This document shows, piece after piece, positions 12,653-29,384 of a DNA stretch of 64,000 bases. This DNA is from Clostridia bacterium (GTDB lineage Bacteria; Bacillota; Clostridia; Oscillospirales; UBA644). Position 1 is the first letter of the stretch. The number at the start of each line of letters is the position of its first letter. The notes under the pieces were generated by a model. It was not told the origin of the DNA, searched no databases, and worked only from the letters and a program-made list of their open reading frames with translations. Where the stretch lies: the NCBI GenBank assembly GCA_017623595.1, contig JAGAOU010000037.1, positions 7,493 to 71,492 of the forward strand, read 5' to 3'. The translations under genes were made by a program, and so were the position numbers.

Positions 12653-12685
12653 ATATGCGGATGGTCGTCTTGACCGTTCGCTTTC

Positions 12686-12760
12686 GGTTCTTTGCGACTG
12701 ACGGAGAAGTGGATTTGACCACGTGAAACAAAGAGCCTGTATTGCCGACCGTCTGGGCAC
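12686..12760 (+). ncRNA. ZMP/ZTP (pfl) riboswitch aptamer
   Basis: P1 GGTTCTTTG/CAAAGAGCC, GACTGACGGA, P2 GTGG...CCAC, 3' GCCGACCGTCTGGGCA (CCGTC pairs with GACGG as pseudoknot); upstream of pur genes. Confidence 0.93.
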
Positions 12761-12790
12761 TCTTCCAACATAGGGAGCGTGCCCTTTTTT
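12755..12790 (+). terminator. Riboswitch expression-platform terminator
   Basis: GGGCAC...GTGCCC stem plus T run; 5' arm overlaps aptamer P3 (ON-switch architecture). Confidence 0.85.
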
Positions 12791-12824
12791 GTTTTCTGAA
12801 TTCTTGTTCGGAGGTAATTTTACG

Positions 12825-13319: not shown

Positions 13320-13364
13320 GTTTTTATAATCCCTGTTTATATTCAAAGAAAGTAGGTAACAACC

Positions 13365-14054: not shown

Positions 14055-14145
14055 TTTTAACAACTTTCTCTTCCCGCCCCGGAGACCCCTGTACTTCTCC
14101 GGAGCGGGCATCTGATTCTTAATCCTTTGGAGGAATATAGCATTT

Positions 14146-15570
14146 ATGGGAGGATTTTTTGGCGCGGCCTGCAAATACAATGTTATCGATGACGTTTTTT
14201 TCGGCACAGATTACCATTCCCACCTGGGAACCCGTCGGGGTGGTATGGCGGTGTACGATCCTGTGCGTGGGCTTCAGCGCGATATCCATAATATTGAAAA
14301 TTCGCCCTTCCGTACCAAGTTTGAAAAGGTTTTTGAGGAAATGACGGGCTGCTCCGCCATCGGCTGCATCAGTGATTACGATCCTCAGCCCTTGCTCATC
14401 CGTTCCAAGCTTGGAGTTTATGCCATCTGTGTGGTGGGGTTTGTCAACAATGCGGAAGAATTGATCGATCAGTATCTCACCTTCAGCGGCGGCCATTTTA
14501 ACGCCATGACGGCGGGAAATGTCAATGGCACGGAGTTGGTGGCGGCTCTGATCAATCAGAAAAATGATTTTGTGGAGGGGCTTCGCTTTGCGCAGTCCGA
14601 GATTCAAGGCACCGCAAATATTTTGATCCTAAAGGGAGACGGTACTATCCTTGCCGCCCGAGACCGCCTGGGACGTCTGCCTGTTTCCGTGGGAAAGCGG
14701 GAGGACGGTTACTGTGTTTCCACCGAATCCTTTGTTTGCGAGAAGGTGGGATACGAACGGATTCGGGAGCTTGGCCCCGGGGAGATCGTATCGATTACCC
14801 CCGATGGAGTGGAGCAGCTTGCCGCGGCAGGTAAGGAAATGCGCTTCTGCTCCTTTATGTGGAGCTATTACGGATTTCCCACCTCTACCTACGAAGGCGT
14901 CAACGTGGAGGTTATGCGCTATCGTAACGGTCAAATCATGGCTAAGAACGATGCTACTGCAGGAAATGCAGAAGGGGTTGATTATGTTGCCGGGGTTCCC
15001 GATTCCGGTGTTCCCCATGCCATTGGATATGCAAGTAAGAGCGACATTCCATATGCAAGACCTTTTATTAAATATACCCCTTCTTGGTCCCGCTCCTTTA
15101 CCCCTACCCGTCAGAGCGACCGTCAGAAGGTCGCTACCATGAAGCAGATTCCCGTTCATGAGTTGATTCGGGATAAATCCCTTTTGTTTGTGGACGATTC
15201 CATTGTTCGCGGAACCCAGTTGCAGGGTACAGTGGATTTCTTGTATAACCACGGCGCGAAGGAAGTGCATATGCGTTCCGCTTGTCCGCCCATCATGTAT
15301 CCCTGTAAGTTTCTTAACTTCTCCCGTTCCAACAGTGTTATGGAGTTGATTGCCCGCCGCACCATTGCGGAGCTGGAGGGGGAAGAAGGGGAGAAGCATA
15401 TCGAGGAATACTGTGATTCCTCCACCGAACGGGGCAAAAAGCTCCGCGAGACCATTTGTGAAAAGTTCCATTTCAAATCTTTGGAATTTCAGTCTCTGGA
15501 GGGGTTGATTGAAGCTATTGGGATTGATCCGTCCAAGCTCTGTACTTATTGCTGGAACGGCAAAGAATAA
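14146..15570 (+). CDS. purF: Amidophosphoribosyltransferase (variant lacking N-terminal Cys)
   Basis: GVPDSG, PRPP loop VDDSIVRGT, Fe-S Cys ligands (FCSF, YPC, CTYCW); N-terminus MGGFFG. Confidence 0.88.
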   Translation: MGGFFGAACKYNVIDDVFFGTDYHSHLGTRRGGMAVYDPVRGLQRDIHNIENSPFRTKFEKVFEEMTGCSAIGCISDYDPQPLLIRSKLGVYAICVVGFVNNAEELIDQYLTFSGGHFNAMTAGNVNGTELVAALINQKNDFVEGLRFAQSEIQGTANILILKGDGTILAARDRLGRLPVSVGKREDGYCVSTESFVCEKVGYERIRELGPGEIVSITPDGVEQLAAAGKEMRFCSFMWSYYGFPTSTYEGVNVEVMRYRNGQIMAKNDATAGNAEGVDYVAGVPDSGVPHAIGYASKSDIPYARPFIKYTPSWSRSFTPTRQSDRQKVATMKQIPVHELIRDKSLLFVDDSIVRGTQLQGTVDFLYNHGAKEVHMRSACPPIMYPCKFLNFSRSNSVMELIARRTIAELEGEEGEKHIEEYCDSSTERGKKLRETICEKFHFKSLEFQSLEGLIEAIGIDPSKLCTYCWNGKE

Positions 15571-15597
15571 TGTGATAATAGCGAGAGGAGATATCTT

Positions 15598-16644
15598 ATG
15601 AGTTTATCCAAGTCCGACAGTTACGCCGCCGCCGGTGTTGATATTACCGCCGGTTATAAGGCCGTGGAACTGATGAAAAAGCATATTGCACGCACCCGTA
15701 ATGAGGGATGTCTGGATGATGTGGGCGGCTTCGGCGGATGCTTCGGTTTGCCCATTGCCGGCATGGAGGAGCCCGTTCTTGTGTCGGGTACCGACGGCTG
15801 CGGAACCAAGGTAAAGCTTGCCATTCTCATGGACAAGCACGATACCATCGGTATCGATGCCGTTGCCATGTGTGTCAACGATATTATCTGCTGCGGTGCA
15901 AAGCCTCTGTTCTTCCTGGACTACATTGCCTGCGGTAAGAACATTCCCGAAAAGATTGCCGAGATCGTCAGCGGTGTTGCCGAGGGTTGCGTGCAGTCCG
16001 GTGCCGCTCTGATCGGCGGGGAAACGGCAGAGCATCCCGGTATGATGCCCGTGGAGGACTACGACCTTGCAGGTTTTGCCGTCGGTATCGTTGATAAGAA
16101 GAAAATTCTGGACAACACCCGCATGGCGGAAGGGGATATTGTGATTGCCCTGGCCTCTACGGGAATTCACTCCAACGGATTCTCCCTTTGCCGTAAGGTG
16201 TTTGATATTGATAACAACAACCCCGACCTCTATGTTCCCAAGGGAGAGCTGGGCGGAAAAACCACGGCGGAGGCTCTGTTGGTTCCCACCAGAATTTACG
16301 TCAAATCGGTGCTCGCTCTGCTGGAAAAGGTGGATGTGAAGGGGATTTCCCATATCACCGGCGGCGGCTTCTACGAAAATATTCCCAGAAGCATTCCCGA
16401 CGGCCTGGGCGCCAAGATTGACAAGAGTGCCGTTAAGGTGCTTCCCATTTTCGATCTCATCGCCAAGACGGGTAATATCCCCGAACGGGATATGTACAAC
16501 ACTTATAATATGGGTGTCGGCATGAGCATCGTTGTCCCCAAGAATGAGGTGGATACCGCCCTTGAAATCCTCAAGGCCAACGGGGAAGATGCTTACGTCA
16601 TCGGTGAAATCATCGCCTCCGACGAAAAGGTGGTCTTATGCTGA
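15598..16644 (+). CDS. purM: AIR synthetase
   Basis: YAAAGVDI, GTDGCGTK, GGETAEHP, HSNGFSL, HITGGG. Confidence 0.97.
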   Translation: MSLSKSDSYAAAGVDITAGYKAVELMKKHIARTRNEGCLDDVGGFGGCFGLPIAGMEEPVLVSGTDGCGTKVKLAILMDKHDTIGIDAVAMCVNDIICCGAKPLFFLDYIACGKNIPEKIAEIVSGVAEGCVQSGAALIGGETAEHPGMMPVEDYDLAGFAVGIVDKKKILDNTRMAEGDIVIALASTGIHSNGFSLCRKVFDIDNNNPDLYVPKGELGGKTTAEALLVPTRIYVKSVLALLEKVDVKGISHITGGGFYENIPRSIPDGLGAKIDKSAVKVLPIFDLIAKTGNIPERDMYNTYNMGVGMSIVVPKNEVDTALEILKANGEDAYVIGEIIASDEKVVLC

Positions 16645-17270
16645 GTCCCGTTCGGATTGCCGTCCTTGTTTCGGGCGGCGGAACCAATCTGCAAGCCCTG
16701 ATCGATGCGGAAAAAACCGGCATGTTCGGCGCAGGGAAGATTTCTCTTGTTCTCGCCTCCAAGCCCGGGGTTTATGCCCTTGAGCGTGCGACAAACAATG
16801 GGATTCCCGCCAAGGTTTTGCCCCGCAAGGCCTTTGAGTCCATCGCCGATTATTCCAAAGCCCTGGCGGATACGTTACAGGAAGAGAAGATCGATCTTGT
16901 GGTGCTGGCAGGCTTTTTGACCATCATCGACGAGCAGGTGTTTGAAGCCTTCCCTTACCGTATTCTCAACGTTCATCCTGCCCTGATTCCCTCCTTCTGC
17001 GGGAAGGGATACTATGGGCTTCATGTTCATGAGGCGGCTTTGGCGAAGGGCGTGAAGATTTCGGGCGCTACGGTGCATTTTGTTACCCCCGAATGTGACG
17101 CGGGCCCCATCGTTCTGCAAAAGGCGGTGGATGTCAGGCAGGACGATACCCCGGAGACCTTGCAACAGCGCATCATGGAAGAAGCGGAGTGGAAAATTCT
17201 TCCCGAAGCTGTGAAGCTTTTCTGTGAAGGAAAGCTCCGTGTTTCCGATAACAAAGTTTACATTGACTGA
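16638..17270 (+). CDS. purN: GAR transformylase
   Basis: SGGGTNLQA, LNVHPALIP, GATVHFV, DAGPI. Confidence 0.96.
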   Translation: MLSPVRIAVLVSGGGTNLQALIDAEKTGMFGAGKISLVLASKPGVYALERATNNGIPAKVLPRKAFESIADYSKALADTLQEEKIDLVVLAGFLTIIDEQVFEAFPYRILNVHPALIPSFCGKGYYGLHVHEAALAKGVKISGATVHFVTPECDAGPIVLQKAVDVRQDDTPETLQQRIMEEAEWKILPEAVKLFCEGKLRVSDNKVYID

Positions 17271-17291
17271 AGACCGAAAGGAGATCTTTTT

Positions 17292-18008
17292 ATGAAAATT
17301 TCCACCATTGCAAATGAACTGAATTCTTTGGCTTACCACGGCCGCGGTATTATCATCGGAAAGAGCGCTGACGGAAAAAAAGCGATCACCGCTTATTTCA
17401 TCATGGGGCGCAGTGAAAACAGCCGTAACCGTGTCTTTGTTGCGGAAGGGGACGCAATGCGCACCAAAGCCTTTGATGAATCCAAAATGATCGATCCCCA
17501 TCTGATCATTTATTATCCCGTCCGTGTTCTCGGAAATAAGACTATTGTTACCAACGGTGATCAGACCGACACTATTTACGATCTGATGGATAAGCAGATG
17601 ACCTTCGAACAGGCCCTTCGTACCCGTGAATTTGAAGATGATAAGCCTAACTTCACTCCCCGCATTTCGGGCATTATCCATCACGAAAAGGGCGAAATGA
17701 ACTTTGCCATGTTCATTCTGAAGTCCGCCGAGGGCGACGATTCCTCCTGTGAGCGCTTCACCTTCGCCTACAACAATCCCATTGCGGGAAAGGCGAAATT
17801 TATCCACACCTATAACGGTGACGGCAATCCCCTTCCTTCCTACGAAGGAGAGCCCAAGACTCTGGAACTGCCCGACACCGATATTGATTCTCTCACAGAT
17901 CTGATCTGGACCAATCTGAACGAAGATAACAAGGTATCCCTCTTTGTTCGTTACATTGATTTGGAAAACGGCGAGACCGAAACCCGCATCGTCAACAAAA
18001 ACGTTTAA
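17292..18008 (+). CDS. Standalone IMP cyclohydrolase (PurO-like Ntn fold)
   Basis: YHGRGI, YFIMGRSENSRNR, IVTNGDQTD, FEDDKPNFTPRISG; precedes a transformylase lacking the cyclohydrolase domain. Confidence 0.8.
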   Translation: MKISTIANELNSLAYHGRGIIIGKSADGKKAITAYFIMGRSENSRNRVFVAEGDAMRTKAFDESKMIDPHLIIYYPVRVLGNKTIVTNGDQTDTIYDLMDKQMTFEQALRTREFEDDKPNFTPRISGIIHHEKGEMNFAMFILKSAEGDDSSCERFTFAYNNPIAGKAKFIHTYNGDGNPLPSYEGEPKTLELPDTDIDSLTDLIWTNLNEDNKVSLFVRYIDLENGETETRIVNKNV

Positions 18009-18022
18009 TTAAGGAAAGGGAA

Positions 18023-19213
18023 ATGAAAATGAAAGAATTTGAACTGAAGTACGGTTGTAACCCCAATCAGAAGCCCGCAAAAATTTTTATGCATGACGGA
18101 TCCGATCTTCCCATCGAAATCCTTTCCGGCCGTCCCGGATTCATTAACTTCCTGGACGCCTTTAATTCCTGGCAGCTGGTCAAAGAACTGAAGGAAGCCC
18201 TCGGCCTTCCCGCCGCTGCATCCTTCAAGCATGTTTCTCCCACCTCTGCCGCCGTGGGTACCCCCCTTCCCGAAAAACTGAAGAAGGCTTGCTTTGTGGA
18301 TGACATCGAAGGCCTGGATGAGAATCCTTTGGCCTGCGCCTATGCCCGTGCCCGCGGTACCGACCGTATGTGCTCCTACGGTGACTGGGTTGCCCTTTCC
18401 GATGTTTGTGACAAAATGACCGCCGAGTTGATCTTCCGTGAAGTTTCCGACGGCGTTATCGCTCCCGGGTATACCGAGGAAGCCCTCGAAATCCTCAAGG
18501 GCAAACGTAAGGGGAACTACAATGTGGTCAAGATCGATCCCAACTATGTCCCCGATGCCATCGAGCATAAGCAGGTTTACGGTATTACCTTTGAGCAGGG
18601 CCGCAACGCTGTTGCCATCGATGCAAAGATGCTGGAAAACGTGGTCACCGAGAAGAAGGATCTTCCCGAATCCGCAAAGAGAGACCTGGTTGTTGCTCTG
18701 ATTACTCTGAAATACACGCAGTCCAACTCGGTTTGCTACGCCGTGGACGGCCAGGCCATCGGTGTGGGTGCCGGACAGCAGTCCCGTATTCATTGTACCC
18801 GTCTTGCCGGCGGAAAGGCAGACACCTGGCATCTGCGTCAGGCCGACAAGGTCCTTAACCTGCCCTTCAAGCCCGAGTTGTCCCGTCCCGAACGTGACAA
18901 CGTCATCGACGGCTACATCAACAAAAACGAAGAGGATGTTTGCGCTGAAGGCGTTTGGCAGAAATACTTCACCGTCCGTCCCGAGCCCTTTACCTCCGAG
19001 GAAATGAAGGCATATCTTGCCACCATCCGCGGTGTTGCTCTGGGCTCTGATGCTTTCTTCCCCTTTGATGACAATATTCAGCGCGCTTACGCCAGCGGTG
19101 CAGATTATATCGCAGAACCCGGCGGCTCCATCCGTGATGACATTGTTATCTCCCGTTGCAATGAACTGGGCATTTCCATGGCATTTACGGGTCTCCGTTT
19201 GTTCCACCACTAA
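18023..19213 (+). CDS. purH: AICAR transformylase (transformylase domain only)
   Basis: LKYGCNPNQ, SFKHVSP, QSNSV, GQQSRIHC, SDAFFPF, RLFHH; no N-terminal MGS-like domain. Confidence 0.9.
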   Translation: MKMKEFELKYGCNPNQKPAKIFMHDGSDLPIEILSGRPGFINFLDAFNSWQLVKELKEALGLPAAASFKHVSPTSAAVGTPLPEKLKKACFVDDIEGLDENPLACAYARARGTDRMCSYGDWVALSDVCDKMTAELIFREVSDGVIAPGYTEEALEILKGKRKGNYNVVKIDPNYVPDAIEHKQVYGITFEQGRNAVAIDAKMLENVVTEKKDLPESAKRDLVVALITLKYTQSNSVCYAVDGQAIGVGAGQQSRIHCTRLAGGKADTWHLRQADKVLNLPFKPELSRPERDNVIDGYINKNEEDVCAEGVWQKYFTVRPEPFTSEEMKAYLATIRGVALGSDAFFPFDDNIQRAYASGADYIAEPGGSIRDDIVISRCNELGISMAFTGLRLFHH

Positions 19214-19234: not shown

Positions 19235-20335
19235 ATGAAGAAGATTTTTGCATTGTTGCTTTGTCTTTCTATGGTTTTTGCTCTCGTTGCCTGCGGCGGC
19301 GGAGAAGAAACGCTCACGGACGGTTCGGATGCATCGGTTGACGCTTCCACCGAAACCTCCACTGACACGTCTTCCAATACGTCCACCAATACAAACGGTT
19401 CTTGGGGCGATCTTCCCGAGGATACCGTTCCCAACCTGGTAATCGCTAACGATCAGATCAAGGAACGTGCCGTTATCTATGATCTGGATGCCTACGAAGA
19501 AGGCGATACTCTGGATGATCTTGAGGTTTGGTCGGTTCCTACCGGTCATGCGGCAGGTGTTAAGTACCGCGAAGACACGGTTTTCGGTGACGTTGTTATT
19601 GTTGCCGGATCTCAGACGTCCGCTATTTACAAATATCCCTCTAAGGAAGTTGTTTGGAGTACTTCCAACCCCGGAAATAATCCCCACTCCATCGAAATTC
19701 TTCCCTCCGGTAATATCGTTATTGCCAACTCCACGGGCAACTGCCTCAGAGTTTTTTCCGCTTCTGCGATTTTGGACGGGAATAAGGGTGTTGCTCAGAA
19801 ATTTACTGATTACACGTTGAAGGGTGCTCACGGTGTTTTGTGGGATCCCGAATATGAAGTTCTGTGGGCGCTGGGCGGTTACGAACTGGCGGCTTATGCC
19901 ATCTCCGGCACCGGAACAGGTGAAAAATTGTCCAAAGTGGGCGGTATGGGGTGCGATATTTCCAAACTGGGCTACGGTCATGACCTCCAGCCCGACTATA
20001 CCGACACACGTTATCTCTACTTCACTGCGGGGAATGCCTACCGCTTTGATAAAGAAGAGAACAAGGCAGGCAGTTTCCCCCAGGCCAGCACGATGCAGCA
20101 AAAGGAAATCAAAGGATTTTCCAACAATCCCAATGGGAATGTGTTTACCACAGGTCCTCTCGGCGGTGCCGGAAAGTTCTTTGCCAACAGCTCCAAGGAA
20201 TCCTGGCTGACCGATACGATTTATTTCTTCACCAAGAAGGTTGTCAAGGACCGAGTTGTTGTTACGAAAAACGAATTTGTTTCGGAATCCAGCGCCTTCT
20301 ATAAGGTTCGTGCGTTCTACGGACAGTATCAATAA
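19235..20335 (+). CDS. Beta-propeller lipoprotein, DUF6528-like (paralog 1)
   Basis: MKK plus hydrophobic stretch plus LVAC lipobox; S/T/D linker; NDQ, NPHSIEILP, HGVLWD, GHDL, FYKVR motifs. Confidence 0.75.
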   Translation: MKKIFALLLCLSMVFALVACGGGEETLTDGSDASVDASTETSTDTSSNTSTNTNGSWGDLPEDTVPNLVIANDQIKERAVIYDLDAYEEGDTLDDLEVWSVPTGHAAGVKYREDTVFGDVVIVAGSQTSAIYKYPSKEVVWSTSNPGNNPHSIEILPSGNIVIANSTGNCLRVFSASAILDGNKGVAQKFTDYTLKGAHGVLWDPEYEVLWALGGYELAAYAISGTGTGEKLSKVGGMGCDISKLGYGHDLQPDYTDTRYLYFTAGNAYRFDKEENKAGSFPQASTMQQKEIKGFSNNPNGNVFTTGPLGGAGKFFANSSKESWLTDTIYFFTKKVVKDRVVVTKNEFVSESSAFYKVRAFYGQYQ

Positions 20336-20402
20336 TCTTGACAGGATTTTTTCTTCTCGGCAACGTTTGTTGTGAGTATCACAAAATAAGGGGTATAACA
20401 TC

Positions 20403-21491
20403 ATGAAAAAGATTTTTGCATTAGTGCTTTGTCTCTCAGTGCTTTTTTCTCTTGTTGCCTGCGGAGGTGGGGAAGTTCCCTCTGATGGGTCGGACGCATC
20501 GGTTGATGCGTCCTCCGAATCCTCTACCGACACCTCCACCGATACCTCCGGTTGGACCGGTCTTCCCGAAGACACGGTTGATAACTGGGTTATTGCCAAC
20601 GATCAGATCAAGGATCGCGTTGTTGTGTATGATCTGGATGCATACGAAGAAGGTGATGTTCTGGAGGATTTGGAGGTTTGGTCTGTTTCGACCCAGGGCC
20701 AGGCCGCAGGGGTAAAGTATCGTGAGGATACCGTGTTCGGCGATGTTGTTATCGTTGCGGGCAGTCATTCCGCCATTTATGAATATCCCTCCGGAAAAGA
20801 GCTTTGGTCCACAAACAATCCCGGAAACAATACACATTCCATTGAGATCCTTCCCTCCGGGAATATCGTTCTTGCCAATTCCACAGGCAACAGCCTGCGC
20901 ATGTTCCAAGCCAGCGCTATCCTGAGCGGCGACAGCAAGAAGTCTCAAAGCTTTAAGGACTATGAATTGGCCGGTGCGCACGGGGTTCTGTGGGATCCCG
21001 AATACGATGTTCTGTGGGCCCTGGGTAACGGCGAAATCGCCGCCTATGCCCTTGCCAACAGTAGCGCGGGAGAGGTCCTTTCCAAGGTTTCCGGAATGGG
21101 GACCACCTTCTCGGGTCTGAAGGGGAGTGGCCATGATTTGCAGCCTGACTATAGTGATACCCGTTATCTCTATTTCACCGCAGGAAATGTTTACATGTTC
21201 GATAAGGAAGAAAATAAGGTTCGGACCAGTTTCCCCTATTCTTCTACTTTCCAGCTTCCCGAAATCAAGGGCTTTTCCAACAACCCCAACAAGAAGTTTT
21301 TCAGTACGGGACTTCTGGGAGGAGAAGGAAAGTTCTTCGAAGGCCATTGGAAGGAAAGTTGGCTGACCGATACCATTATTTTTTACTTCAGAATCGAAAA
21401 GCGTGGCCAGGTTGCCATGCGCAAGGTTGAAATTGTTGCGGAAGAAAGTGCTTTTTATAAGGTTCGTGCTTTTTACGGACAATATCAATAA
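20403..21491 (+). CDS. Beta-propeller lipoprotein, DUF6528-like (paralog 2)
   Basis: LVAC lipobox; S/T/D linker; same motifs; C-terminus SAFYKVRAFYGQYQ identical to paralog 1. Confidence 0.75.
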   Translation: MKKIFALVLCLSVLFSLVACGGGEVPSDGSDASVDASSESSTDTSTDTSGWTGLPEDTVDNWVIANDQIKDRVVVYDLDAYEEGDVLEDLEVWSVSTQGQAAGVKYREDTVFGDVVIVAGSHSAIYEYPSGKELWSTNNPGNNTHSIEILPSGNIVLANSTGNSLRMFQASAILSGDSKKSQSFKDYELAGAHGVLWDPEYDVLWALGNGEIAAYALANSSAGEVLSKVSGMGTTFSGLKGSGHDLQPDYSDTRYLYFTAGNVYMFDKEENKVRTSFPYSSTFQLPEIKGFSNNPNKKFFSTGLLGGEGKFFEGHWKESWLTDTIIFYFRIEKRGQVAMRKVEIVAEESAFYKVRAFYGQYQ

Positions 21492-21529
21492 CCTTGATAT
21501 GATTTTCGGTTCCTCGGGGGCATTTACTT

Positions 21530-22444
21530 ATGGGTGGATGGAATCATCCGGTGCTTGGAAACGATCAATGGAACGAATCCATTGTTTTGTATGATTTGGA
21601 CTGCATAGATTCCCTCGGTTCTTTGGAGCAGGGGGAAATTCAACGCTGGTCTACCGATCACATATCCGGGATGACCTATCGTGAAGATACCGTTTTCGGC
21701 GATGTATTTCTCACCGTTGGAAGGACCGCTTCCCTTGTTACTTTCCCGGAAGGGAAGGTCTTGTGGTCTACCGATTCTCCCGGACGGAATTCTCATGCGG
21801 CAGAATTGTTGCCGGGAGGTAATCTCATTGTGGCCAATTCCTCGGGGGATGATTTCCGACTGTTCTTTACGTCAGCGCTTTTGACTTCAGATCGGGATTC
21901 TGCCGCAACCTATGTTTCCTATCCGTTCTTCCACACCCACGGGGTCCTGTGGGATCCCGTGTACCAATGCCTTTGGGTGTTGGGTGCCGGGGAGCTTGCA
22001 GCCTATCGCGCGGTCGGGGAAGGGGTGTCCCAACGTTTGGAGCCCATTCCCGGAAAACGGTGGTCGATTTCCGAATACGGGAACGGCGGTCATGATTTGA
22101 ATCCCGATCCTACCGACAGCCGCTATTTGTTTTGTACACCCCTTCACGGCGTGCTTCGCTTCGACAAACAGACGGGAACCTTTTCCCGCCCATATCCTGC
22201 ACAAGCTGCCATTGCAACCCGCCATTGTAAATCCTTTTCCTGTTTTCCTGACGGAACGTTTGTTTATACCTCCCCTGCGCTTCGGGATGATCCGAAATGG
22301 AACGACTGGTGGAAGCAGAACTGGTGTACAGACAGAATTGTTTGGTTGCGGGTTTCCCCCGATGGAACTTTTGAGGAACGGGAAATCTTTAGCGATCAAG
22401 GTGCGTTTTATAAATGTAAGGTCTTTTACGGACAGTACCTTTGA
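21530..22444 (+). CDS. DUF6528-like beta-propeller, no signal peptide (paralog 3)
   Basis: GNDQ, NSHAAELLP, HGVLWD, GHDL, FYKCK. Confidence 0.72.
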   Translation: MGGWNHPVLGNDQWNESIVLYDLDCIDSLGSLEQGEIQRWSTDHISGMTYREDTVFGDVFLTVGRTASLVTFPEGKVLWSTDSPGRNSHAAELLPGGNLIVANSSGDDFRLFFTSALLTSDRDSAATYVSYPFFHTHGVLWDPVYQCLWVLGAGELAAYRAVGEGVSQRLEPIPGKRWSISEYGNGGHDLNPDPTDSRYLFCTPLHGVLRFDKQTGTFSRPYPAQAAIATRHCKSFSCFPDGTFVYTSPALRDDPKWNDWWKQNWCTDRIVWLRVSPDGTFEEREIFSDQGAFYKCKVFYGQYL

Positions 22445-22467
22445 ATTGATTACGGAGATGTTTTGTT

Positions 22468-23385
22468 ATGGAAAACAAATCCTTTCTTGTTATCGGAAAT
22501 GATCAGATGGCGGAGCAGATGACCGTCTACGATTTGGGGAAAATTCCCGAAGACGGTTCTCTGGAGGACGGGGCCGTCTGGTCCTTCCCTTCGGGACATT
22601 CCGCAGGGGTTAAATACCGTGAGAATACCGTGTTTGGCGACGTGATGCTTTTTGGCGGAAGCAGGAGTTATATGGTCTCCTATCCTTCGGGTGAAGTTCT
22701 CTGGTTTACGGATTGTTCAGGCAACAATACCCATTCGGTGGAGATTCTTCCCGGTGGGAATCTTGTGTTTGCCAATTCTACGGGGAATGACATCCGTCTT
22801 TTCTATACCTCTGCACTGCTGGCGGGAGATAAAGAAACTGCCGCCACCTATACCTCCTATCCCTTCGGATGTACCCATGGGGTCTTGTATGATCCTGTGT
22901 ATGAATGCCTTTGGGTGATCGGTGAGTGGGATCTTGCCGCTTATCGCATTGTAGGTCAGGGAACAGAGCAGACGTTGGAACCTATCGAGGGAAAATCCTA
23001 TTCTCTCAAGCCCTTCGGCAATGCGGGACACGACCTGTCTCCCGATCTTTTGGACAGTCGCTATCTCTATTGCACCCCTGCCTCGGGTGTTCTTCGTTTT
23101 GACAAAGAAACGGGTGCCTTTGATACCTCTTTTGCCGACGGAACGCCTCTGCAGTCTTATTCCTTTAAGTCCTTTACCCAATTTCCCGACGGGACGTATG
23201 TTTACACTGCTCCCTATTGTAACGGTCGCCGCCGCATGCTTGAGGATTGGTGGAAGGGTAGTTGGTGCACCGATTTTATTGGTGTTCTGCGACACTTGCC
23301 TGACGGCTCCCGACAAGAAACCCGCTATTTTGCTGATGTTGCCGCATTTTATAAGTGTCGTGCCCTTTGCGGAAGATACTTGTAA
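22468..23385 (+). CDS. DUF6528-like beta-propeller, no signal peptide (paralog 4)
   Basis: GNDQ, NTHSVEILP, HGVLYD, GHDL, FYKCR; GGAG RBS. Confidence 0.75.
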   Translation: MENKSFLVIGNDQMAEQMTVYDLGKIPEDGSLEDGAVWSFPSGHSAGVKYRENTVFGDVMLFGGSRSYMVSYPSGEVLWFTDCSGNNTHSVEILPGGNLVFANSTGNDIRLFYTSALLAGDKETAATYTSYPFGCTHGVLYDPVYECLWVIGEWDLAAYRIVGQGTEQTLEPIEGKSYSLKPFGNAGHDLSPDLLDSRYLYCTPASGVLRFDKETGAFDTSFADGTPLQSYSFKSFTQFPDGTYVYTAPYCNGRRRMLEDWWKGSWCTDFIGVLRHLPDGSRQETRYFADVAAFYKCRALCGRYL

Positions 23386-23412
23386 GTGTTTTGCAAAAAA
23401 GGAGGTTTTGTT

Positions 23413-24330
23413 GTGGACCTGAATGTGTCTTCTGTTCCGAAGCTGATTCTTGCAACGGATCAGTTTCAGGAGAGGGCTGTTGTTTATGATCTGGCGCGCT
23501 ACGAAGAAGGGAAGACCTTGGATGATCTTGAGGTTTGGTCTCTTCCCATTGGTCATGCCGCCGGATTAAAGTTTCGGGAAAACACTGTATTCGGTGATGT
23601 GATTATCGTGGGGGGCAGCCACAGCGCTATTTACGAATACCCCTCAGGACGCAAAATATGGGGAACCGATAACAGCGGGAACAACACCCATTCGGTAGAG
23701 CTTCTGCCCTCCGGAAATATCGTTTTTACCAATACCCACGGACACTGTCTCCGCCTATTCCTTACCTCCGCTCTGTTGGAGGGAAACGAGGCGAAAGCAC
23801 AGGAATATCTTGAATATCCGAAAAACTGGGCTTACAGTGCAGTCTGGGATCCTGAACGGAAGGTTCTTTGGGCAGGCGGAAGCCGTCTTGAGGCCTACGC
23901 GGTGGAGGGAGAAGGAACGAATCAAACGCTCCGTCTTTTGGAAGATAGGGGTTATACTTACCCTGCCCATGATATGATGCCCGATTACACCGATTCCCGC
24001 TACCTATATATGGCAGGGAACGAGGTCGTTCGCTATGATAAGCAAACCAATACAATTTCCGATCAATTCTCCTTCTGTGATGTTCTGCAGGGGGGTTCTC
24101 TGAAATGTTTCTTCAATGTCCCCTGCGGCGATTTCTACTGTAACGGAACCCTCGGAGGGAAAGGAAGGTTTTACGAAGGATTCCGGAAGGAATCCTGGCT
24201 GACCGATACAATCGTTTGTTTTTTTCGAAAGATCGATGAAAACGGAACGGTCTGCCTTGTGCGGCGAGAGTTGACCTCCTCCAAAAGTGCATTCTATAAG
24301 GTCCGTCCTCTTTACGGGAAATATCTGTAA
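23413..24330 (+). CDS. DUF6528-like beta-propeller, no signal peptide (paralog 5)
   Basis: GTG start after GGAGG; TDQ, NTHSVELLP, YSAVWD, AHDM, FYKVR. Confidence 0.72.
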   Translation: MDLNVSSVPKLILATDQFQERAVVYDLARYEEGKTLDDLEVWSLPIGHAAGLKFRENTVFGDVIIVGGSHSAIYEYPSGRKIWGTDNSGNNTHSVELLPSGNIVFTNTHGHCLRLFLTSALLEGNEAKAQEYLEYPKNWAYSAVWDPERKVLWAGGSRLEAYAVEGEGTNQTLRLLEDRGYTYPAHDMMPDYTDSRYLYMAGNEVVRYDKQTNTISDQFSFCDVLQGGSLKCFFNVPCGDFYCNGTLGGKGRFYEGFRKESWLTDTIVCFFRKIDENGTVCLVRRELTSSKSAFYKVRPLYGKYL

Positions 24331-24398: not shown

Positions 24399-25664
24399 AT
24401 GAAATTACTTGTGGTCGGTGGTGGCGGACGAGAGCATGCCATCATCAAAAAACTTCGGGAAAATCCCGAAGTGACCGAAATCTTTGCCCTTCCCGGCAAC
24501 GGTGGCATTGCGCGGGATGCTACCTGCGTGGATATCGGTGCGAAGGATATCGACGCTATTGTGAAGTTTGCTGTGGAAAACAAGATTGATTATGCCGTGG
24601 TCGCCCCCGACGATCCTTTGGTCCTCGGGTGTGTGGATGCCTTGAATGAAAAGGGGATTCCCTGCTTCGGTCCCAAGGCCAATGCGGCCATCATTGAAGG
24701 CAGTAAGGTCTTTTCCAAGGATCTGATGAAGAAATACGGCATTCCTACCGCCGCCTATGAGGTCTTTACCGAAATGAATGGGGCGCTGGAATACCTGAAA
24801 ACCGCCCCCATTCCCACCGTCATCAAGGCCGACGGGCTTGCCCTCGGCAAGGGTGTGGTCATCGCCATGACCCGTGAGGAGGCTACCGATGCGGTGCGCT
24901 CCATGATGGAGGATAAAATTTTTGGGGAAAGCGGAAGCCGCGTTGTTATTGAGGAATTTTTGACCGGCCCTGAGGTTTCGGTGCTTTCCTTTACCGACGG
25001 GAAAACCGTGGTTCCCATGGTTTCCTCCATGGATCACAAACGAGCATTGGACAATGACGAAGGGTTGAACACCGGCGGTATGGGTACCATTGCCCCCAAC
25101 CCCTATTACACCGCTGAAATTGCCGATGTGTGTATGAAGACCATCTTCAAGCCCACCATCGATGCCATGAATGCCGAGGGTAGAACCTTCAAGGGTTGCC
25201 TCTATTTCGGTCTCATGCTCACCCCCAAGGGCCCCAAGGTGATTGAGTACAACTGCCGTTTCGGCGATCCCGAGACTCAGGTGGTGCTTCCTCTGCTGGA
25301 AAGCGATCTTCTCACCGTAATGAAGGCCACAACCGACGGAACCCTGACCGAGGACATGGTCAAGTTCCGTGACGGATCCTGTGCCTGTGTGGTAATGGCC
25401 TCTGCGGGATATCCCCAAAAATATCAAACGGGGTATGAAATCACCCTTCCCGAAACCGTCGCCGACCGAGTTTATGTGGCGGGTGCAAAGCTTGTCGATG
25501 ACAAGCTGCTCACCTCCGGCGGCCGAGTTCTCGGCGTGACCGGAACAGGGGAGACCCTGCCTGAGGCGCTCAACGCTGCGTATCAAGCTGTCAATGAAAT
25601 TTCTTTCGAAAATGCTTTTTGCCGCAAGGACATCGGTGCCCGTGCATTGAAGGCATTGAATTGA
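24399..25664 (+). CDS. purD: Phosphoribosylamine-glycine ligase
   Basis: GGGGREHA, KADGLALGKGV, NTGGMG, EYNCRFGDPE. Confidence 0.97.
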   Translation: MKLLVVGGGGREHAIIKKLRENPEVTEIFALPGNGGIARDATCVDIGAKDIDAIVKFAVENKIDYAVVAPDDPLVLGCVDALNEKGIPCFGPKANAAIIEGSKVFSKDLMKKYGIPTAAYEVFTEMNGALEYLKTAPIPTVIKADGLALGKGVVIAMTREEATDAVRSMMEDKIFGESGSRVVIEEFLTGPEVSVLSFTDGKTVVPMVSSMDHKRALDNDEGLNTGGMGTIAPNPYYTAEIADVCMKTIFKPTIDAMNAEGRTFKGCLYFGLMLTPKGPKVIEYNCRFGDPETQVVLPLLESDLLTVMKATTDGTLTEDMVKFRDGSCACVVMASAGYPQKYQTGYEITLPETVADRVYVAGAKLVDDKLLTSGGRVLGVTGTGETLPEALNAAYQAVNEISFENAFCRKDIGARALKALN

Positions 25665-25673
25665 GGAGTTATT

Positions 25674-28600
25674 ATGGTATATCGTGTTTATGTTGAAAAA
25701 CGGGGCGAACTTGCCCATGAGGCCAACGGACTTCTGGAGGATGTCCGCGGTTTTCTCGGCATCGCTTCTTTGGAAAAGGTTCGTATTCTGAACCGCTACG
25801 ATGTGGAAGGCATCGGGGAAGAGCTCTTTGAAAAAGCGGTCAACACCGTCTTTTCCGAACCTCAGGTGGATGTTGCCACCGCCGATTACGATGCGGCAGG
25901 GGGCACGGTGTTTGCAGTGGAATATCTGCCCGGTCAGTTCGACCAGCGTGCCGATTCCGCCGCCCAGTGTATCCAGATTATGAGTCAAGGGGAACGTCCC
26001 CTTGTCCGCACGGCGAAGATCTATATTTTGGAAGGAGATCTTTCCGAAGAAGAAATCGCCGCCATCCGCCATCACGTCATTAACCCTGTGGAATGCCGTG
26101 AAGCGAGTCTGGAAAAGCCCGATACGCTGGCCCTTTCGGTGAATATCCCCGAATCGGTTGCCACCGTGGATGGATTTTTGGAACTGGATCGGGACGGACT
26201 GGATGCCCTGGTTAAGTCCCTTGGTCTTGCCATGGATCTGGACGACATCACCTTCTGTCAGAATTATTTCAAAACCGAAGGCCGTAACCCCACCATCACT
26301 GAAATCCGCATGATCGATACCTACTGGTCCGATCACTGCCGCCATACCACATTCCTTACCACTATCGACAATGTGAAGTTCGAGGATGCTCTTTTACAGA
26401 GCGCCTACGATGAATATATCGCCACCCGTAAGGAATTGGGACGCACCAAGCCCATCAATCTGATGGATATCGGTACCTTGGCGGGCAAATACCTGCACAA
26501 GAACGGTTATCTGGACAAACTGTACGAATCGGAAGAGATTAACGCTTGTACGGTTCGCATGACTGTGACCGTGGATGGGGAAGAGCAGCCCTGGCTTTTG
26601 CTCTTTAAGAACGAAACTCACAACCACCCCACCGAGATCGAGCCCTTCGGCGGCGCTGCCACCTGTATCGGTGGTGCTATCCGCGATCCTCTGGCCAGCC
26701 GCGCTTACGTTTATGCCGCTATGCGCGTGACGGGGGCCGCCGATCCTTTGAAGCCTGTGGAGGAAACCATGACGGGTAAGCTTCCTCAGCGCAAGATTGT
26801 CACCACTGCCGCCGCCGGTTATTCTTCCTACGGTAACCAGATCGGTCTTTGCACCGGCATGGTGGACGAGCTCTACCATCCCGGCTATGCGGCCAAGCGC
26901 ATGGAAATCGGTGCAGTTGTCGGTGCGGTGCATGAAGATCACTCCAAGCCCGATTTCCCCGCTCCCGGCGATAAGGTTATCCTTCTGGGCGGTCGTACGG
27001 GTCGCGACGGTTGCGGCGGTGCCACCGGTTCCTCCAAGAGCCACACCGTTGCTTCTCTGGAAAGCTGCGGCGCAGAGGTTCAGAAGGGGAATGCTCCCGA
27101 GGAACGCAAGCTTCAGCGTATGTTCCGCAACGGGGAAGCCGCCGTTATGATCAAGCGCTGCAATGACTTCGGCGCAGGCGGTGTTTCTGTTGCCATCGGT
27201 GAATTGGCCGACGGCCTGGAAATCGATCTGAATAAAGTACCAAAGAAATACGAAGGTTTGGACGGCACCGAACTGGCCATTTCCGAATCCCAGGAACGTA
27301 TGGCTGTTGTGGTTGCCGAAGAAAATGTGGCTCGTTTCCTGGAAATCGCCGAGAGCGAAAACCTGGAAGCCACCGTTGTTGCCACCGTCAAGGAAGATCC
27401 CCGTCTTAAGATGTATTGGAACGGGCAGACCATCTGTGACGTCAGCCGCGAATTTTTGAATTCCAACGGTGCGGAAAAACATATCGATATTGACGTTGCC
27501 GCTCCCGTGTCCTTCAAGCCCGCCATCAACGGCTCCTTTACCGAAAATCTGTACAACGTAGCCACCGATCTGAACACCTGCTCCAAGCGCGGTCTGTCCG
27601 AGCGCTTCGACGCCACCATCGGCGCGGGCACGGTGCTTATGCCCTTCGGCGGTAAGCATCAGCAGACTCCCATTCAGGCCATGGTTCATAAGATCAGCCT
27701 GGAAAAGGGGCACACCGACGATTGCTCGGTCATGTCTTGGGGCTACAATCCCTACATCACCGAAAAGTCTCCCTATCATGGCGCTTATCTTGCCGTGGTG
27801 GAATCCGCTGCCAAGCTGGTTGCCACCGGCGCTTCTTACGAGGATGTTTACCTCACCTTCCAGGAATATTTCCTGCGCGTGGGCAAGGATTCCAAGCGTT
27901 GGGGACAGCCTATGGCCGCCCTGTTGGGTGCTTTCAAGGCGCAGAAGGATCTGAAGATCGCCGCCATTGGCGGTAAGGACTCCATGTCGGGTACCTTCGA
28001 AGATCTGGATGTTCCTCCCACCCTCGTTTCTTTTGCAATCACCACTGAAAAGGTGCAGAACATCATTTCCAATGAATTCAAGAAAGCGGGCAGCAAGGTG
28101 GTTTGCCTTTCTCCCGAATATGATGAAAACGGTCTTCCCAACACCGAATCCCTCCTGTCCCTCTTCCGTCGCGTGACCGAGCTTATGCGGGCGGGCAAGG
28201 TCTTGTCTTGCTACACTCCCGGCATGGGTGGTATCGGTGCCGCAGTCATGAAGATGGCATTCGGCAACGGCTTTGGCTTTGATTTCGCCGACACGGTATG
28301 CCCCAAGTGCCTGTTCGGTTATGAATACGGCTCCTTCGTCATGGAGGTGACCGAAGATGTGGAAGGTGCCCGTCTGATCGGTACCGTTACCGACAAGGGC
28401 GTGATCACCCGGAAGGATGAATCTGTTTCCCTCGCCGACCTGCAGAAGGCTTACGAGGACAAACTGGAATCGGTTTACGCCTGCAACATTCCCGACGCAA
28501 AGATCCCCGTTGAAACAGTTTCCTCTCCCGCATCTGTCCGTGTGGCTCCCGCCGTCAAGGTGGCTAAGCCCAAGGTGCTGATTCCCGTGTTCCCCGGAAC

Positions 28601-29366
28601 CAACTGTGAATATGACTCTGCCCGCGCCGTTTCCGATGCAGGGGCCGAACCCGAGATCTTTGTGGTCAAGAACCGTTCCTCCGAAGCAATCGCCAAGAGT
28701 GTGGAGGAATTTGCCTGCAAGATCAAGGATTCTCAGGTGATCTTCATTCCCGGCGGGTTCTCCGGCGGGGACGAGCCCGATGGATCGGGTAAGTTCATCA
28801 CCGCCTTCTTCCGCAACGCCGCCATTAAGGAAGAGGTTACCAAACTGTTGGAAGATCGGGACGGTCTGATGCTGGGTATCTGCAACGGATTCCAGGCCTT
28901 GGTCAAGCTGGGCCTCGTTCCCTACGGCAAGATCATTGATACCGATGAAGCTTGCCCCACCTTGACCTACAACGTCATCGGTCGTCACCAGTCCCGTATC
29001 GTCCGCACCCGTGTTGCCTCCAACAAGTCTCCCTGGCTTGCCAATACCAACGTGGGTGATGTGTACAACGTTGCCATTTCTCACGGGGAAGGTCGCTTCT
29101 TTGCAAGCGAATCTCTGGCACGGGAACTGATCAACAACGGTCAGGTTGCCACCCAGTATGTGGACCTTGCGGGCAATGCCACCGCCGATGTCCGCTTCAA
29201 TCCCAACGGTTCCATTTTCGCCATCGAGGGTATCACCTCGCCCGACGGCCGTGTATTGGGTAAGATGGGCCATTCCGAACGTATCGGCAACGGTCTGTAC
29301 CGCAACGTCCCCGGCGAATACGACATGAAGCTCTTCAAATCCGCAGTAGAATATTTTAAGAAATAA
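25674..29366 (+). CDS. purL: FGAM synthase (large fused form)
   Basis: WSDHCRH, ETHNHPT, DFGAGG; C-terminal glutaminase PGTNCE, LGICNGFQ, MGHSER. Confidence 0.96.
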   Translation: MVYRVYVEKRGELAHEANGLLEDVRGFLGIASLEKVRILNRYDVEGIGEELFEKAVNTVFSEPQVDVATADYDAAGGTVFAVEYLPGQFDQRADSAAQCIQIMSQGERPLVRTAKIYILEGDLSEEEIAAIRHHVINPVECREASLEKPDTLALSVNIPESVATVDGFLELDRDGLDALVKSLGLAMDLDDITFCQNYFKTEGRNPTITEIRMIDTYWSDHCRHTTFLTTIDNVKFEDALLQSAYDEYIATRKELGRTKPINLMDIGTLAGKYLHKNGYLDKLYESEEINACTVRMTVTVDGEEQPWLLLFKNETHNHPTEIEPFGGAATCIGGAIRDPLASRAYVYAAMRVTGAADPLKPVEETMTGKLPQRKIVTTAAAGYSSYGNQIGLCTGMVDELYHPGYAAKRMEIGAVVGAVHEDHSKPDFPAPGDKVILLGGRTGRDGCGGATGSSKSHTVASLESCGAEVQKGNAPEERKLQRMFRNGEAAVMIKRCNDFGAGGVSVAIGELADGLEIDLNKVPKKYEGLDGTELAISESQERMAVVVAEENVARFLEIAESENLEATVVATVKEDPRLKMYWNGQTICDVSREFLNSNGAEKHIDIDVAAPVSFKPAINGSFTENLYNVATDLNTCSKRGLSERFDATIGAGTVLMPFGGKHQQTPIQAMVHKISLEKGHTDDCSVMSWGYNPYITEKSPYHGAYLAVVESAAKLVATGASYEDVYLTFQEYFLRVGKDSKRWGQPMAALLGAFKAQKDLKIAAIGGKDSMSGTFEDLDVPPTLVSFAITTEKVQNIISNEFKKAGSKVVCLSPEYDENGLPNTESLLSLFRRVTELMRAGKVLSCYTPGMGGIGAAVMKMAFGNGFGFDFADTVCPKCLFGYEYGSFVMEVTEDVEGARLIGTVTDKGVITRKDESVSLADLQKAYEDKLESVYACNIPDAKIPVETVSSPASVRVAPAVKVAKPKVLIPVFPGTNCEYDSARAVSDAGAEPEIFVVKNRSSEAIAKSVEEFACKIKDSQVIFIPGGFSGGDEPDGSGKFITAFFRNAAIKEEVTKLLEDRDGLMLGICNGFQALVKLGLVPYGKIIDTDEACPTLTYNVIGRHQSRIVRTRVASNKSPWLANTNVGDVYNVAISHGEGRFFASESLARELINNGQVATQYVDLAGNATADVRFNPNGSIFAIEGITSPDGRVLGKMGHSERIGNGLYRNVPGEYDMKLFKSAVEYFKK

Positions 29367-29384
29367 GAAAAGGAGAACATTCCA

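What the first reader, a model, noticed from the sequence alone, without database searches (positions are those of the whole stretch)
19235..24330. Five-gene array of uncharacterised beta-propeller paralogs embedded in a ZTP-riboswitch purine operon
Seen: five tandem co-oriented paralogs (~5.1 kb) sit between purH and purD with short spacers and no clear terminator. All share the blocks (N/T)DQ, G(V/L/M)x(Y/F)RE(D/N)TVFGD, NxH(S/A)xE(I/L)LPxGN, HD(L/M)xPD, KxF, W(L/C)TD and FYK(V/C)(R/K). Known: purH and purD are usually neighbours in Firmicute pur operons, and these motifs resemble DUF6528, for which I know no function. Inference: the spaced His/His/His/Lys/Lys-Arg set suggests one propeller face that binds an anion, phosphate or metal. 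If co-transcribed, the array would be induced by ZMP/ZTP (purine/folate stress) and could be an undescribed nucleotide- or folate-related scavenging or hydrolysis system. A neutral insertion using a strong operon is the alternative.
Basis: partly seen in the sequence, partly recalled or inferred. Interest (0 to 1): 0.82.

Follow-up and report, generated by a model that had tools for sequence, protein, structure and literature searches.

The report
Propeller lipoprotein genes inside purine operon
Five related genes of an uncharacterised propeller-protein family really do sit inside a riboswitch-controlled purine operon of a gut bacterium, but they look like a dispensable, lineage-specific insert of a much larger surface-protein family rather than part of purine metabolism.

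Summary
Five co-oriented DUF6528 (PF20138) paralogs occupy 19235-24330 between purH and purD. The 19-kb operon starts with a consensus promoter and a ZTP riboswitch with its own terminator, and its only other strong terminator lies at 31671.

The purine-specific reading is weakly supported:
- The genome (a 2.4-Mb gut Clostridia MAG) holds 24 DUF6528 genes; 19 lie elsewhere, 11 of them in one array.
- 18 of the 24 are lipoproteins, including D1 and D2 here.
- Among 11 genomes of the genus, the purH|purD junction carries an array in 5, nothing in 4, and an unrelated 23S-rRNA-IVP gene in 2.
- All 10 out-genus relatives that show both genes have purH next to purD.
- 73 of 79 family loci from other species have no pur gene within 10 kb.

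The insert is nevertheless old and under purifying selection, and its orthologous clades are shared by several species.

An AlphaFold model (pLDDT 94) shows a six-bladed propeller with no close solved relative. The invariant His/His/His/Arg/Lys/Tyr residues sit at the starts of the first strand of successive blades, so one face is likely. Fusions elsewhere (Metallophos, AP_endonuc_2, dockerin, lectin) suggest an extracytoplasmic enzyme or binding module. Function remains unknown.

The parts
12624..12652 (+). Consensus sigma-70 promoter (TTGACA-17-TATAAT, extended TG) of the pur operon
   Evidence: 12 of 12 matches
12684..12765 (+). ZMP/ZTP riboswitch aptamer
   Evidence: RF01750, 62.1 bits (gathering score 39)
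12755..12795 (+). Expression-platform terminator hairpin that shares the aptamer's 3' strand, followed by U6GU4
   Evidence: -19.8 kcal/mol, z -4.1, 0 of 200 shuffles fold as well
12825..19213 (+). purE (likely ATG at 12825 after a GGAGG), purC, purF, purM, purN, PurO-like IMP cyclohydrolase, AICARFT-only purH
19235..20335 (+). D1, DUF6528 lipoprotein (lipobox LVAC at residues 17-20, Ser/Thr/Asp-rich linker, propeller)
20403..21491 (+). D2, DUF6528 lipoprotein, 72% identical to D1; the duplication unit includes the RBS and the spacer
21530..22444 (+). D3, DUF6528 without a signal peptide; the longest possible ORF already starts at the propeller
22468..23385 (+). D4, DUF6528 without a signal peptide; modelled as a six-bladed propeller
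23386..24330 (+). D5, derived from the lipoprotein clade but lacking its signal peptide; GTG start abuts the D4 stop; Tyr replaces the near-invariant His137 (D4 numbering); long branch
24399..31660 (+). purD, large purL, fhs (formate-THF ligase), RdgB/HAM1 XTP/dITP diphosphatase
31671..31701 (+). Strong intrinsic terminator at the end of the operon
   Evidence: 14-bp stem, -29.3 kcal/mol, z -8.0

Best explanation
The array is a lineage-specific cassette from a large, fast-evolving and mostly lipoprotein family of six-bladed propellers (DUF6528). It entered the purH|purD junction of an ancestor of this gut Clostridia genus and was amplified there by tandem duplication. One branch lost its signal peptide.

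The array has no promoter or terminator of its own that stands out. It is therefore most likely transcribed by read-through from the ZTP-riboswitch promoter (inferred, not shown). The operon works without it, because congeners have lost it or never had it.

The proteins themselves are probably extracytoplasmic enzymes or ligand-binding modules, plus cytoplasmic derivatives. They would use one polar pocket at the mouth of the propeller channel, lined by three His, Arg, Lys and Tyr. The likely ligand is an anionic, phosphorylated or glycan-linked substrate. They are not steps of purine or folate metabolism.
For: Family size and location:
- The genome has 24 copies, 11 of them in one array on contig C57; the 14 control genomes have none.
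- 18 of the 24 carry a lipobox (plus one judged by eye).

Distribution among relatives:
- All 11 other genomes of the genus have the family, with 2-27 matches each. Only 4 of the 34 genomes in the family's 9 other genera do.
- Junction states in the genus are array in 5 (own genome included), contiguous in 4 and a 23S_rRNA_IVP gene in 2. All 10 out-genus loci that show both genes are contiguous.
- These states are intermixed on a purD tree; an array genome and a contiguous genome are sisters at 99*.
- Five congeners without the array have no D1- or D4-like gene anywhere (best identity 27-37%).

Age and selection:
- The pur-embedded copies form orthologous clades shared by species: a no-signal-peptide clade (5 of 5 rows pur-embedded, support 100*) and a lipoprotein clade (6 of 7 rows, 95*).
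- Of 25 listed strain differences, 19 are synonymous and 6 are not.
- dN is 0.21-0.37, against 0.05-0.07 for purD and purH in the same genome pairs.

Transcription signals:
- Promoter-like sites are at chance level: 16 found against 14.7 expected.
- The spacers hold no terminator.

Structure and family context:
- The model has pLDDT 94.2 and is a six-bladed propeller. Invariant residues lie at the first-strand starts of five blades.
- Fusions occur to Metallophos (6 of 6 proteins over 900 aa in the loci; 7 of 59 long representatives), AP_endonuc_2, dockerin, SLH and ricin-type lectin.
- Most distant members carry Sec signal peptides.
Against: - The same position is kept in at least 5 species, and also in a more distant MAG (L026). 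All 4 array-bearing relatives that were scanned have the ZTP riboswitch.
- The no-signal-peptide clade was found only inside pur operons (5 of 5 rows). This is what a purine-linked role would predict, although descent by tandem duplication explains it equally well.
- Phosphoesterase fusions and neighbours (Metallophos, a CbiR-like TIM barrel below its cutoff, GDPD, EEP) are compatible with nucleotide substrates.
- Co-transcription is not shown. RNA-library contigs cover parts of D2-D5, but none bridges a junction, and DNA carry-over cannot be excluded.
- The one-face placement of the residues was not checked on coordinates.
Confidence: 0.6

Rival explanations
1. The array is a ZTP-induced purine or phosphate scavenging module. 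The lipoproteins D1 and D2 would release or bind extracellular nucleotides or nucleic-acid fragments, and the cytoplasmic D3 and D4 would process an internal phosphorylated intermediate. Selection would keep them in the ZTP regulon.
For: - The position is kept in at least 5 species plus L026, and the riboswitch is present in 4 of 4 relatives scanned.
- The no-signal-peptide clade occurs only in pur operons.
- The genes are under purifying selection.
- The invariant His/Arg/Lys/Tyr set suits an anionic ligand.
- Metallophos fusions and a CbiR-like (below cutoff) TIM-barrel fusion link the family to phosphoesters.
Against: - 6 of 11 congeners lack the array at the junction, and 5 of those that were tested lack the clade altogether.
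- 19 of 24 own copies and 73 of 79 family loci are unrelated to pur genes.
- Tallies of 233 neighbouring ORFs show no purine or folate family among the top 25.
- The proteins evolve 4-5 times faster than purD and purH.
Confidence: 0.2
2. The arrays provide surface diversity. Fast-evolving tandem lipoprotein paralogs would vary the cell surface, for example against phages or host factors, and the pocket would have a binding rather than a catalytic role.
For: - The genome has 24 copies in tandem arrays of up to 11, and copy number across the genus ranges from 2 to 27.
- dN is high relative to the housekeeping neighbours.
- 18 of 24 copies are lipoproteins.
Against: - An invariant polar residue set is kept family-wide, in Actinomycetota and Paenibacillus as well. 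That is more typical of an active site.
- Three of the five copies here have no export signal.
- No switching elements were seen. Only coding-sequence repeats and two weak inverted repeats were found.
Confidence: 0.1
3. The array is decaying neutral cargo with no function.
For: - D5 has lost its signal peptide and one near-invariant His, sits on a long branch, and falls just under the Pfam cutoff.
- The array is absent from close relatives.
Against: - All five frames are intact.
- 68 columns are invariant across the five.
- 19 of 25 listed strain differences are synonymous.
- Synonymous sites are saturated between D1 and D2 while the proteins remain 72% identical.
- Orthologs are retained across species.
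Confidence: 0.07

Closest known systems
Pfam DUF6528 (PF20138), an uncharacterised propeller family
   Same: D1-D4 score above the gathering cutoff. The same invariant Arg, His, Glu, His, Asp, His-Asp, Lys and Tyr-Lys-x-Arg residues are kept in distant members. Atlas neighbours are DUF6528 clusters, mostly Actinomycetota.
   Different: These are expanded to 24 copies per 2.4-Mb genome, mostly as lipoproteins with Ser/Thr/Asp linkers, and five are embedded in a pur operon. No member has a described function: full-text searches for DUF6528 and PF20138 found 0 papers, NCBIfam has no model that matches, and no solved structure is related by sequence.
ZTP-riboswitch-controlled pur and one-carbon operons of Clostridia
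   Same: The elements are a promoter, a ZTP aptamer, a terminator platform, then purE-C-F-M-N-O-H ... purD-L-fhs. That ZTP riboswitches control purine and folate genes is recalled knowledge.
   Different: A 5.1-kb block of non-purine genes interrupts purH-purD. Relatives outside the genus have the two genes adjacent.
Six-bladed propeller hydrolases and binding domains (lactonase/SMP30-like, NHL, YWTD)
   Same: All-beta six-blade toroid. The best Foldseek hits are 6-phosphogluconolactonase 6nau (TM 0.58), nidogen YWTD 1npe (0.62/0.70) and the TRIM71 NHL domain.
   Different: Sequence identity is only 8-15% and TM about 0.5-0.6, which is generic propeller similarity. No Pfam hit to these families reached threshold; NHL scored 17.5 bits against a cutoff of 20.
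23S rRNA intervening-sequence protein (PF05635) gene in congeners
   Same: It occupies exactly the same purH|purD junction in two genomes of the genus.
   Different: It is an unrelated 115-aa four-helix-bundle protein. It shows that the junction tolerates foreign inserts.

Membership tests
DUF6528 (PF20138) | Pfam HMM score at or above the gathering cutoff (23.5 bits) | tested here: met
   D1 41.2, D2 41.2, D3 32.1 and D4 28.0 bits pass. D5 scores 23.0, just under the cutoff, but scores 413 bits against the family HMM built from alignment A2.
DUF6528 (PF20138) | Family-wide invariant residues (Arg51, His89, Glu92, His137, Asp142, His188-Asp189, Lys234, Tyr295-Lys296, Arg298; D4 numbering) | tested here: met
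   Present in D1-D4. D5 has Tyr in place of His137.
ZMP/ZTP riboswitch (RF01750) | Covariance-model score at or above the gathering score, plus an expression platform | tested here: met
   62.1 bits against 39. A terminator overlaps the aptamer's 3' strand.
Bacterial lipoprotein | N-terminal signal peptide ending in a lipobox with Cys | tested here: met
   D1 and D2 have MKKIFAL...LVAC. D3, D4 and D5 have none, and their longest ORFs leave no room for one. No dedicated predictor was run.
Operon membership (co-transcription with pur genes) | One transcript spanning the purH-D1 and D5-purD junctions | tested here: inconclusive
   The spacers hold no terminator and no promoter above chance. RNA-library contigs cover parts of D2-D5, but none bridges a junction.
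NHL repeat / SMP30-lactonase-type six-bladed propellers | Significant sequence-profile match or close structural match | tested here: not met
   NHL scored 17.5 bits, below its cutoff of 20, in D1 only. No SGL or lactonase hit appeared even at E up to 10. Foldseek TM was about 0.5-0.6 at 8-15% identity.
Arylsulfate sulfotransferase-type His-centred propellers (a recalled lead) | Pfam match to the arylsulfotransferase families | tested here: not met
   No such family was listed at E up to 10, and none appeared among the top 50 Foldseek rows. The resemblance (several His plus Arg in the channel) is recalled, not tested on structure.
Purine or folate pathway enzyme | Recurrent gene neighbourhood with pur or fol genes across lineages | tested here: not met
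   6 of 79 loci, all from one lineage, have pur genes within 10 kb. No pur or fol family is in the top 25 of either neighbour tally.

The most novel reading that the evidence does not exclude
DUF6528 is a new family of six-bladed, His-centred propeller enzymes acting on phosphodiester- or phosphate-bearing substrates. In this Clostridia genus, a lipoprotein plus cytoplasmic pair has been recruited into the ZTP regulon as a scavenging module that switches on under purine or folate stress.
Probability: 0.12. Interest if true: 0.75.

Novelty: new member of a known kind. Interest (0 to 1): 0.4.

Why it matters
An invariant, enzyme-like propeller family has no described member, yet it occupies about 1% of a small gut-bacterial genome. 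It recurs fused to phosphoesterase, TIM-barrel, lectin, dockerin and cell-wall-anchor modules, which makes it a reasonable target for function discovery in gut Clostridia, Actinomycetota and Paenibacillus.

The pur-operon copies are the easiest entry point, because their expression can probably be switched through a known ligand (ZMP/ZTP). For riboswitch biology the case is also a caution: sitting downstream of a riboswitch does not by itself place a gene in the ligand's pathway.

Tried and rejected
- **Structure search.** Foldseek against the PDB gave only generic propellers. The PDB sequence-profile search gave one spurious WD40 hit and one viral hit.
- **Pocket test.** The "one pocket" test therefore rests on DSSP strand positions only.
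- **Fused forms.** A word-index search for longer fused forms found none, which is weak evidence. Fused forms were instead found among the loci and in the representative search.
- **Literature.** Full-text searches for DUF6528/PF20138 found 0 papers. Two broader searches returned only unrelated papers, seen as listings only. Supplementary files were not consulted.
- **NCBIfam.** No model matched D1-D5 or two distant members.
- **Other arrays.** An Rfam scan of the other arrays found no riboswitch, only a tRNA.
- **RNA evidence.** Two metatranscriptome runs of one study hold contigs over parts of D2-D5 at depth 2-9. None bridges purH-D1 or D5-purD, and DNA carry-over cannot be excluded, so co-transcription and expression level stay open. 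Depth in the pur-gene bins is inflated by other organisms at the 90% likeness threshold and was not used.
- **Gene calling.** A first gene-calling pass by ORF length picked antisense shadow ORFs. It was replaced by a composition score with DUF6528 ORFs placed first.
- **Neighbour tallies.** They cover 233 ORFs from 63 of 79 loci. Six pur-operon loci and 10 redundant Kribbella loci were left out, as were ORFs over 1300 aa.
- **Trees and dN/dS.** The trees are quick IQ-TREE runs (LG+G4, SH-aLRT only). dS is saturated, so dN/dS values of about 0.15 are rough.
- **Not run.** Complex prediction and the second structure job were not used, because no binding claim is made.


Full report
**What is there**

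The + strand carries one long gene string:
- a 12-of-12 consensus promoter with an extended TG (12624-12652);
- a ZMP/ZTP aptamer (12684-12765; RF01750, 62.1 bits against a gathering score of 39);
- purE, purC, purF, purM, purN, a PurO-like IMP cyclohydrolase (PF07826) and an AICARFT-only purH (18023-19213);
- five DUF6528 genes (19235-24330);
- purD, a large purL, fhs and an RdgB/HAM1 diphosphatase (31067-31660);
- the only strong terminator after the leader (31671-31701; -29.3 kcal/mol, z -8.0).

Directly after the aptamer, a hairpin reuses the aptamer's 3' strand and is followed by U6GU4 (-19.8 kcal/mol; 0 of 200 shuffles fold as well). The switch therefore acts on transcription. The real purE start is probably the ATG at 12825, behind a GGAGG, and not the TTG at 12789 inside the U-tract.

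**The five genes**

They are 366, 362, 304, 305 and 314 aa long. They are 72, 39, 45 and 52 % identical to the first and share 68 invariant columns.

Pfam DUF6528 scores are 41.2, 41.2, 32.1, 28.0 and 23.0 bits against a cutoff of 23.5. D5 is marginal by Pfam but unambiguous against a family HMM built here (413 bits).

D1 and D2 begin with a lipoprotein signal (MKKIFAL...LVAC) and a Ser/Thr/Asp-rich linker. D3, D4 and D5 have no signal peptide, and their longest possible ORFs start at or just before the propeller. D5 starts with a GTG that abuts the D4 stop. It has Tyr where the family has a near-invariant His (His137 in D4 numbering).

At the DNA level the units are 60-87% alike. The D1/D2 duplication includes the ribosome-binding site and the first bases of the spacer.

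Spacers are 21, 67, 38, 23, 0 and 68 nt. None folds into a terminator with a U-tract. The D5-purD spacer has two hairpins without one. Promoter-like sites across the operon are at chance level: 16 found against 14.7 +/- 4.1 expected.

DNA contigs from two studies span both junctions, so the arrangement is real.

**The wider picture in this genome**

The window lies in a 2.43-Mb, 126-contig, 86%-complete MAG. It holds 24 DUF6528 genes: 11 in tandem on contig C57, 3 on C8, 2 on C69, one each on C13, C72 and C75, and the 5 here. The 14 control genomes have none. Eighteen of the 24 carry a lipobox (plus one judged by eye).

The other copies have varied neighbours:
- a polar amino-acid ABC transporter, downstream of the C57 array;
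- an AraC regulator plus a 1294-aa GH2 enzyme (C8);
- an AraC regulator plus GH20 and a Gfo/Idh/MocA oxidoreductase (C69).

None of these is a purine gene.

**Relatives**

In the GTDB family (46 genomes including this one), all 11 other genomes of the genus have the family, with 2-27 matches each. Only 4 of the 34 genomes in the 9 other genera do.

The surroundings of purD were examined in the 30 best loci:
- Within the genus, the purH|purD junction holds DUF6528 genes in 5 genomes (own genome included; 1 to 5 copies).
- It holds nothing (a gap of about 17 nt) in 4 genomes.
- It holds a 115-aa 23S_rRNA_IVP gene (PF05635, E 4e-29) in 2 genomes.
- One further genus genome was too fragmented to score.
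- All 10 out-genus loci that show both genes have purH and purD 13-162 nt apart.
- 9 more distant loci have no purH near purD.

On a purD tree the three states are intermixed. An array genome and a contiguous genome are sisters at 99*. Five congeners without the array have no D1- or D4-like gene anywhere, the best match being 27-37% identical. De novo purine synthesis therefore does not need these genes.

**The insert is nevertheless old and maintained**

A scan of species-representative genomes found 482 relatives. Of the 79 loci kept, 6 have pur genes within 10 kb. All 6 come from this lineage, with 4, 2, 1 and 1 copies between purH and purD, plus two contig-end fragments of one MAG. All 4 of these relatives that were scanned have the ZTP aptamer upstream of purE.

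In a tree of 83 family members, the pur-embedded copies fall into two clades:
- a no-signal-peptide clade, in which 5 of 5 rows are pur-embedded (100*);
- a lipoprotein clade, with 6 pur-embedded rows and one non-pur Faecousia gene (95*).

D5 belongs to the lipoprotein clade and sits on a long branch.

Synonymous sites are saturated even between D1 and D2. dN between orthologs is 0.21-0.37, against 0.05-0.07 for purD and purH in the same genome pairs. Of the 25 strain differences listed inside the array, 19 are synonymous (this is a listed subset, with 262 more not shown).

The most economical history is one early insertion, duplication in place with loss of the signal peptide in one branch, and repeated loss. 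Exchange by recombination through the conserved flanks is an alternative to repeated loss. This history is an inference.

**What the proteins are**

The AlphaFold model of D4, built with 39 sequences, has mean pLDDT 94.2 and pTM 0.92. It shows 27 strands that group into six four-stranded blades.

Foldseek finds only generic propellers (TM about 0.5-0.6, 8-15% identity). No solved structure is related by sequence. NCBIfam has no matching model, and no paper in the searched library mentions the family.

The residues that stay invariant in the close set and in 59 distant long members are Arg51, His89, Glu92, His137, Asp142, His188-Asp189, Lys234, Tyr295-Lys296 and Arg298. Asn87/His89, His137, His188/Asp189, Lys234 and Tyr295/Lys296 each lie at the start of the first strand of a blade, and Asp12/Gln13 lies after a second strand.

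If those first strands are the inner strands, as in other propellers, all these residues ring one mouth of the central channel. This is topology-based inference. I could not read the coordinates.

**Family context elsewhere**

The family is small: 1169 clusters at 50% identity among 1.84 billion proteins. Members occur in gut Clostridia, Actinomycetota (Kribbella, Nonomuraea, Streptomyces), Paenibacillus and, by Atlas similarity, some fungi. Most distant members carry Sec signal peptides.

Fusions:
- All 6 proteins over 900 aa in the loci have a Metallophos phosphoesterase domain N-terminal of DUF6528, some with ricin-type lectin. They share one architecture and may represent a single fusion event.
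- Two Paenibacillus proteins fuse DUF6528 to an AP_endonuc_2 TIM barrel, in opposite orders. Its best NCBIfam match is the cobamide-remodelling phosphodiesterase CbiR, at 44 bits against a cutoff of 105.
- Among 59 long representatives, Metallophos occurs in 7, AP_endonuc_2 in 2, ricin-type lectin in 2, dockerin in 2, SLH in 1 and choline-binding repeats in 1.

Among 233 neighbouring ORFs at 63 loci, the commonest families are ABC permeases (12), AP_endonuc_2 (8), AraC (7), response regulators (6), SBP_bac_3 (5) and ABC ATPases (5). No purine or folate family reaches the top 25 of either batch.

Taken together, this is the profile of an extracytoplasmic catalytic or binding module, working on a polymeric or anionic (phospho- or glyco-) substrate and feeding uptake systems. 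The chemistry remains unknown.

**Verdict**

The array is very probably read through from the ZTP-controlled promoter. Its presence there is best explained by history, at a junction that also accepts another foreign gene, and not by a role in purine or folate metabolism.

A scavenging role under purine stress is not excluded, and I put it at about 0.2. The conserved position, the pur-only cytoplasmic clade and the phosphoesterase links keep it alive. The family itself is the more interesting object: invariant pocket residues, no characterised member, and 24 copies in a small genome.

Noticed in passing
L099:1097-1444 and L101 (same junction, reverse strand): Two genomes of the genus carry a 115-aa 23S_rRNA_IVP (PF05635, E 4e-29) four-helix-bundle gene exactly between purH and purD. 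It is flanked by short GA-rich / TC-rich mutually complementary stretches. The junction is therefore a recurrent landing site.
   Followed up: partly
L001:2396-2487 (G000 contig C57, about 18313-18404): A tRNA-Ser(GGA) gene sits inside the 11-copy DUF6528 array on contig C57, between two copies and on the same strand.
   Followed up: partly
window 17292-19213: IMP cyclohydrolase and AICAR formyltransferase are separate genes. One is a PurO-like PF07826 protein (238 aa), which scores only 46-56 bits against the archaeal PurO models (cutoffs 150-158). The other is a 396-aa AICARFT-only PurH (NF005492, 660 bits).
   Followed up: no
window 18005-20599 (-), 24405-26345 (-), 26394-30476 (-): Very long antisense ORFs (864, 646 and 1360 aa) shadow the pur genes and the array. 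They score lower than the sense genes on amino-acid composition and look like stop-poor antisense frames, not genes.
   Followed up: partly
L016:11276-13732 (G000 contig C75 19275-21731, - strand): An 818-aa protein without a signal peptide has DUF6528 at residues 545-739. Its roughly 540-aa N-terminal part has no Pfam or NCBIfam match.
   Followed up: no
L071, L083, L094, L096 (full length), L082, L090 (cut by the contig end): Secreted proteins of 1535-1589 aa in Lachnospiraceae/Oscillospiraceae-type MAGs combine ricin-type lectin, Metallophos phosphoesterase and a C-terminal DUF6528 propeller.
   Followed up: partly
window 12016-12586: A second perfect 12-of-12 sigma-70 promoter (12016-12044) precedes nrdR (12104-12586), immediately upstream of the pur operon promoter.
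   Followed up: no
window 31067-31660: The operon ends with an RdgB/HAM1 XTP/dITP diphosphatase (NF011397, 235.9 bits against a cutoff of 234). ORFs of similar length (197 and 195 aa) follow fhs in L018 and L019; their identity was not checked.
   Followed up: partly
G000 contig C57 7578-10574 and loci L025, L029, L034: In G000 the large DUF6528 array is followed by a polar amino-acid ABC transporter (SBP_bac_3, permease, ATPase). In three related MAGs it is followed by ORFs of matching lengths, which may be a second conserved embedding of the family in a nutrient-related gene string; the identity of those ORFs was inferred from lengths and the overall Pfam tally, not checked one by one.
   Followed up: partly
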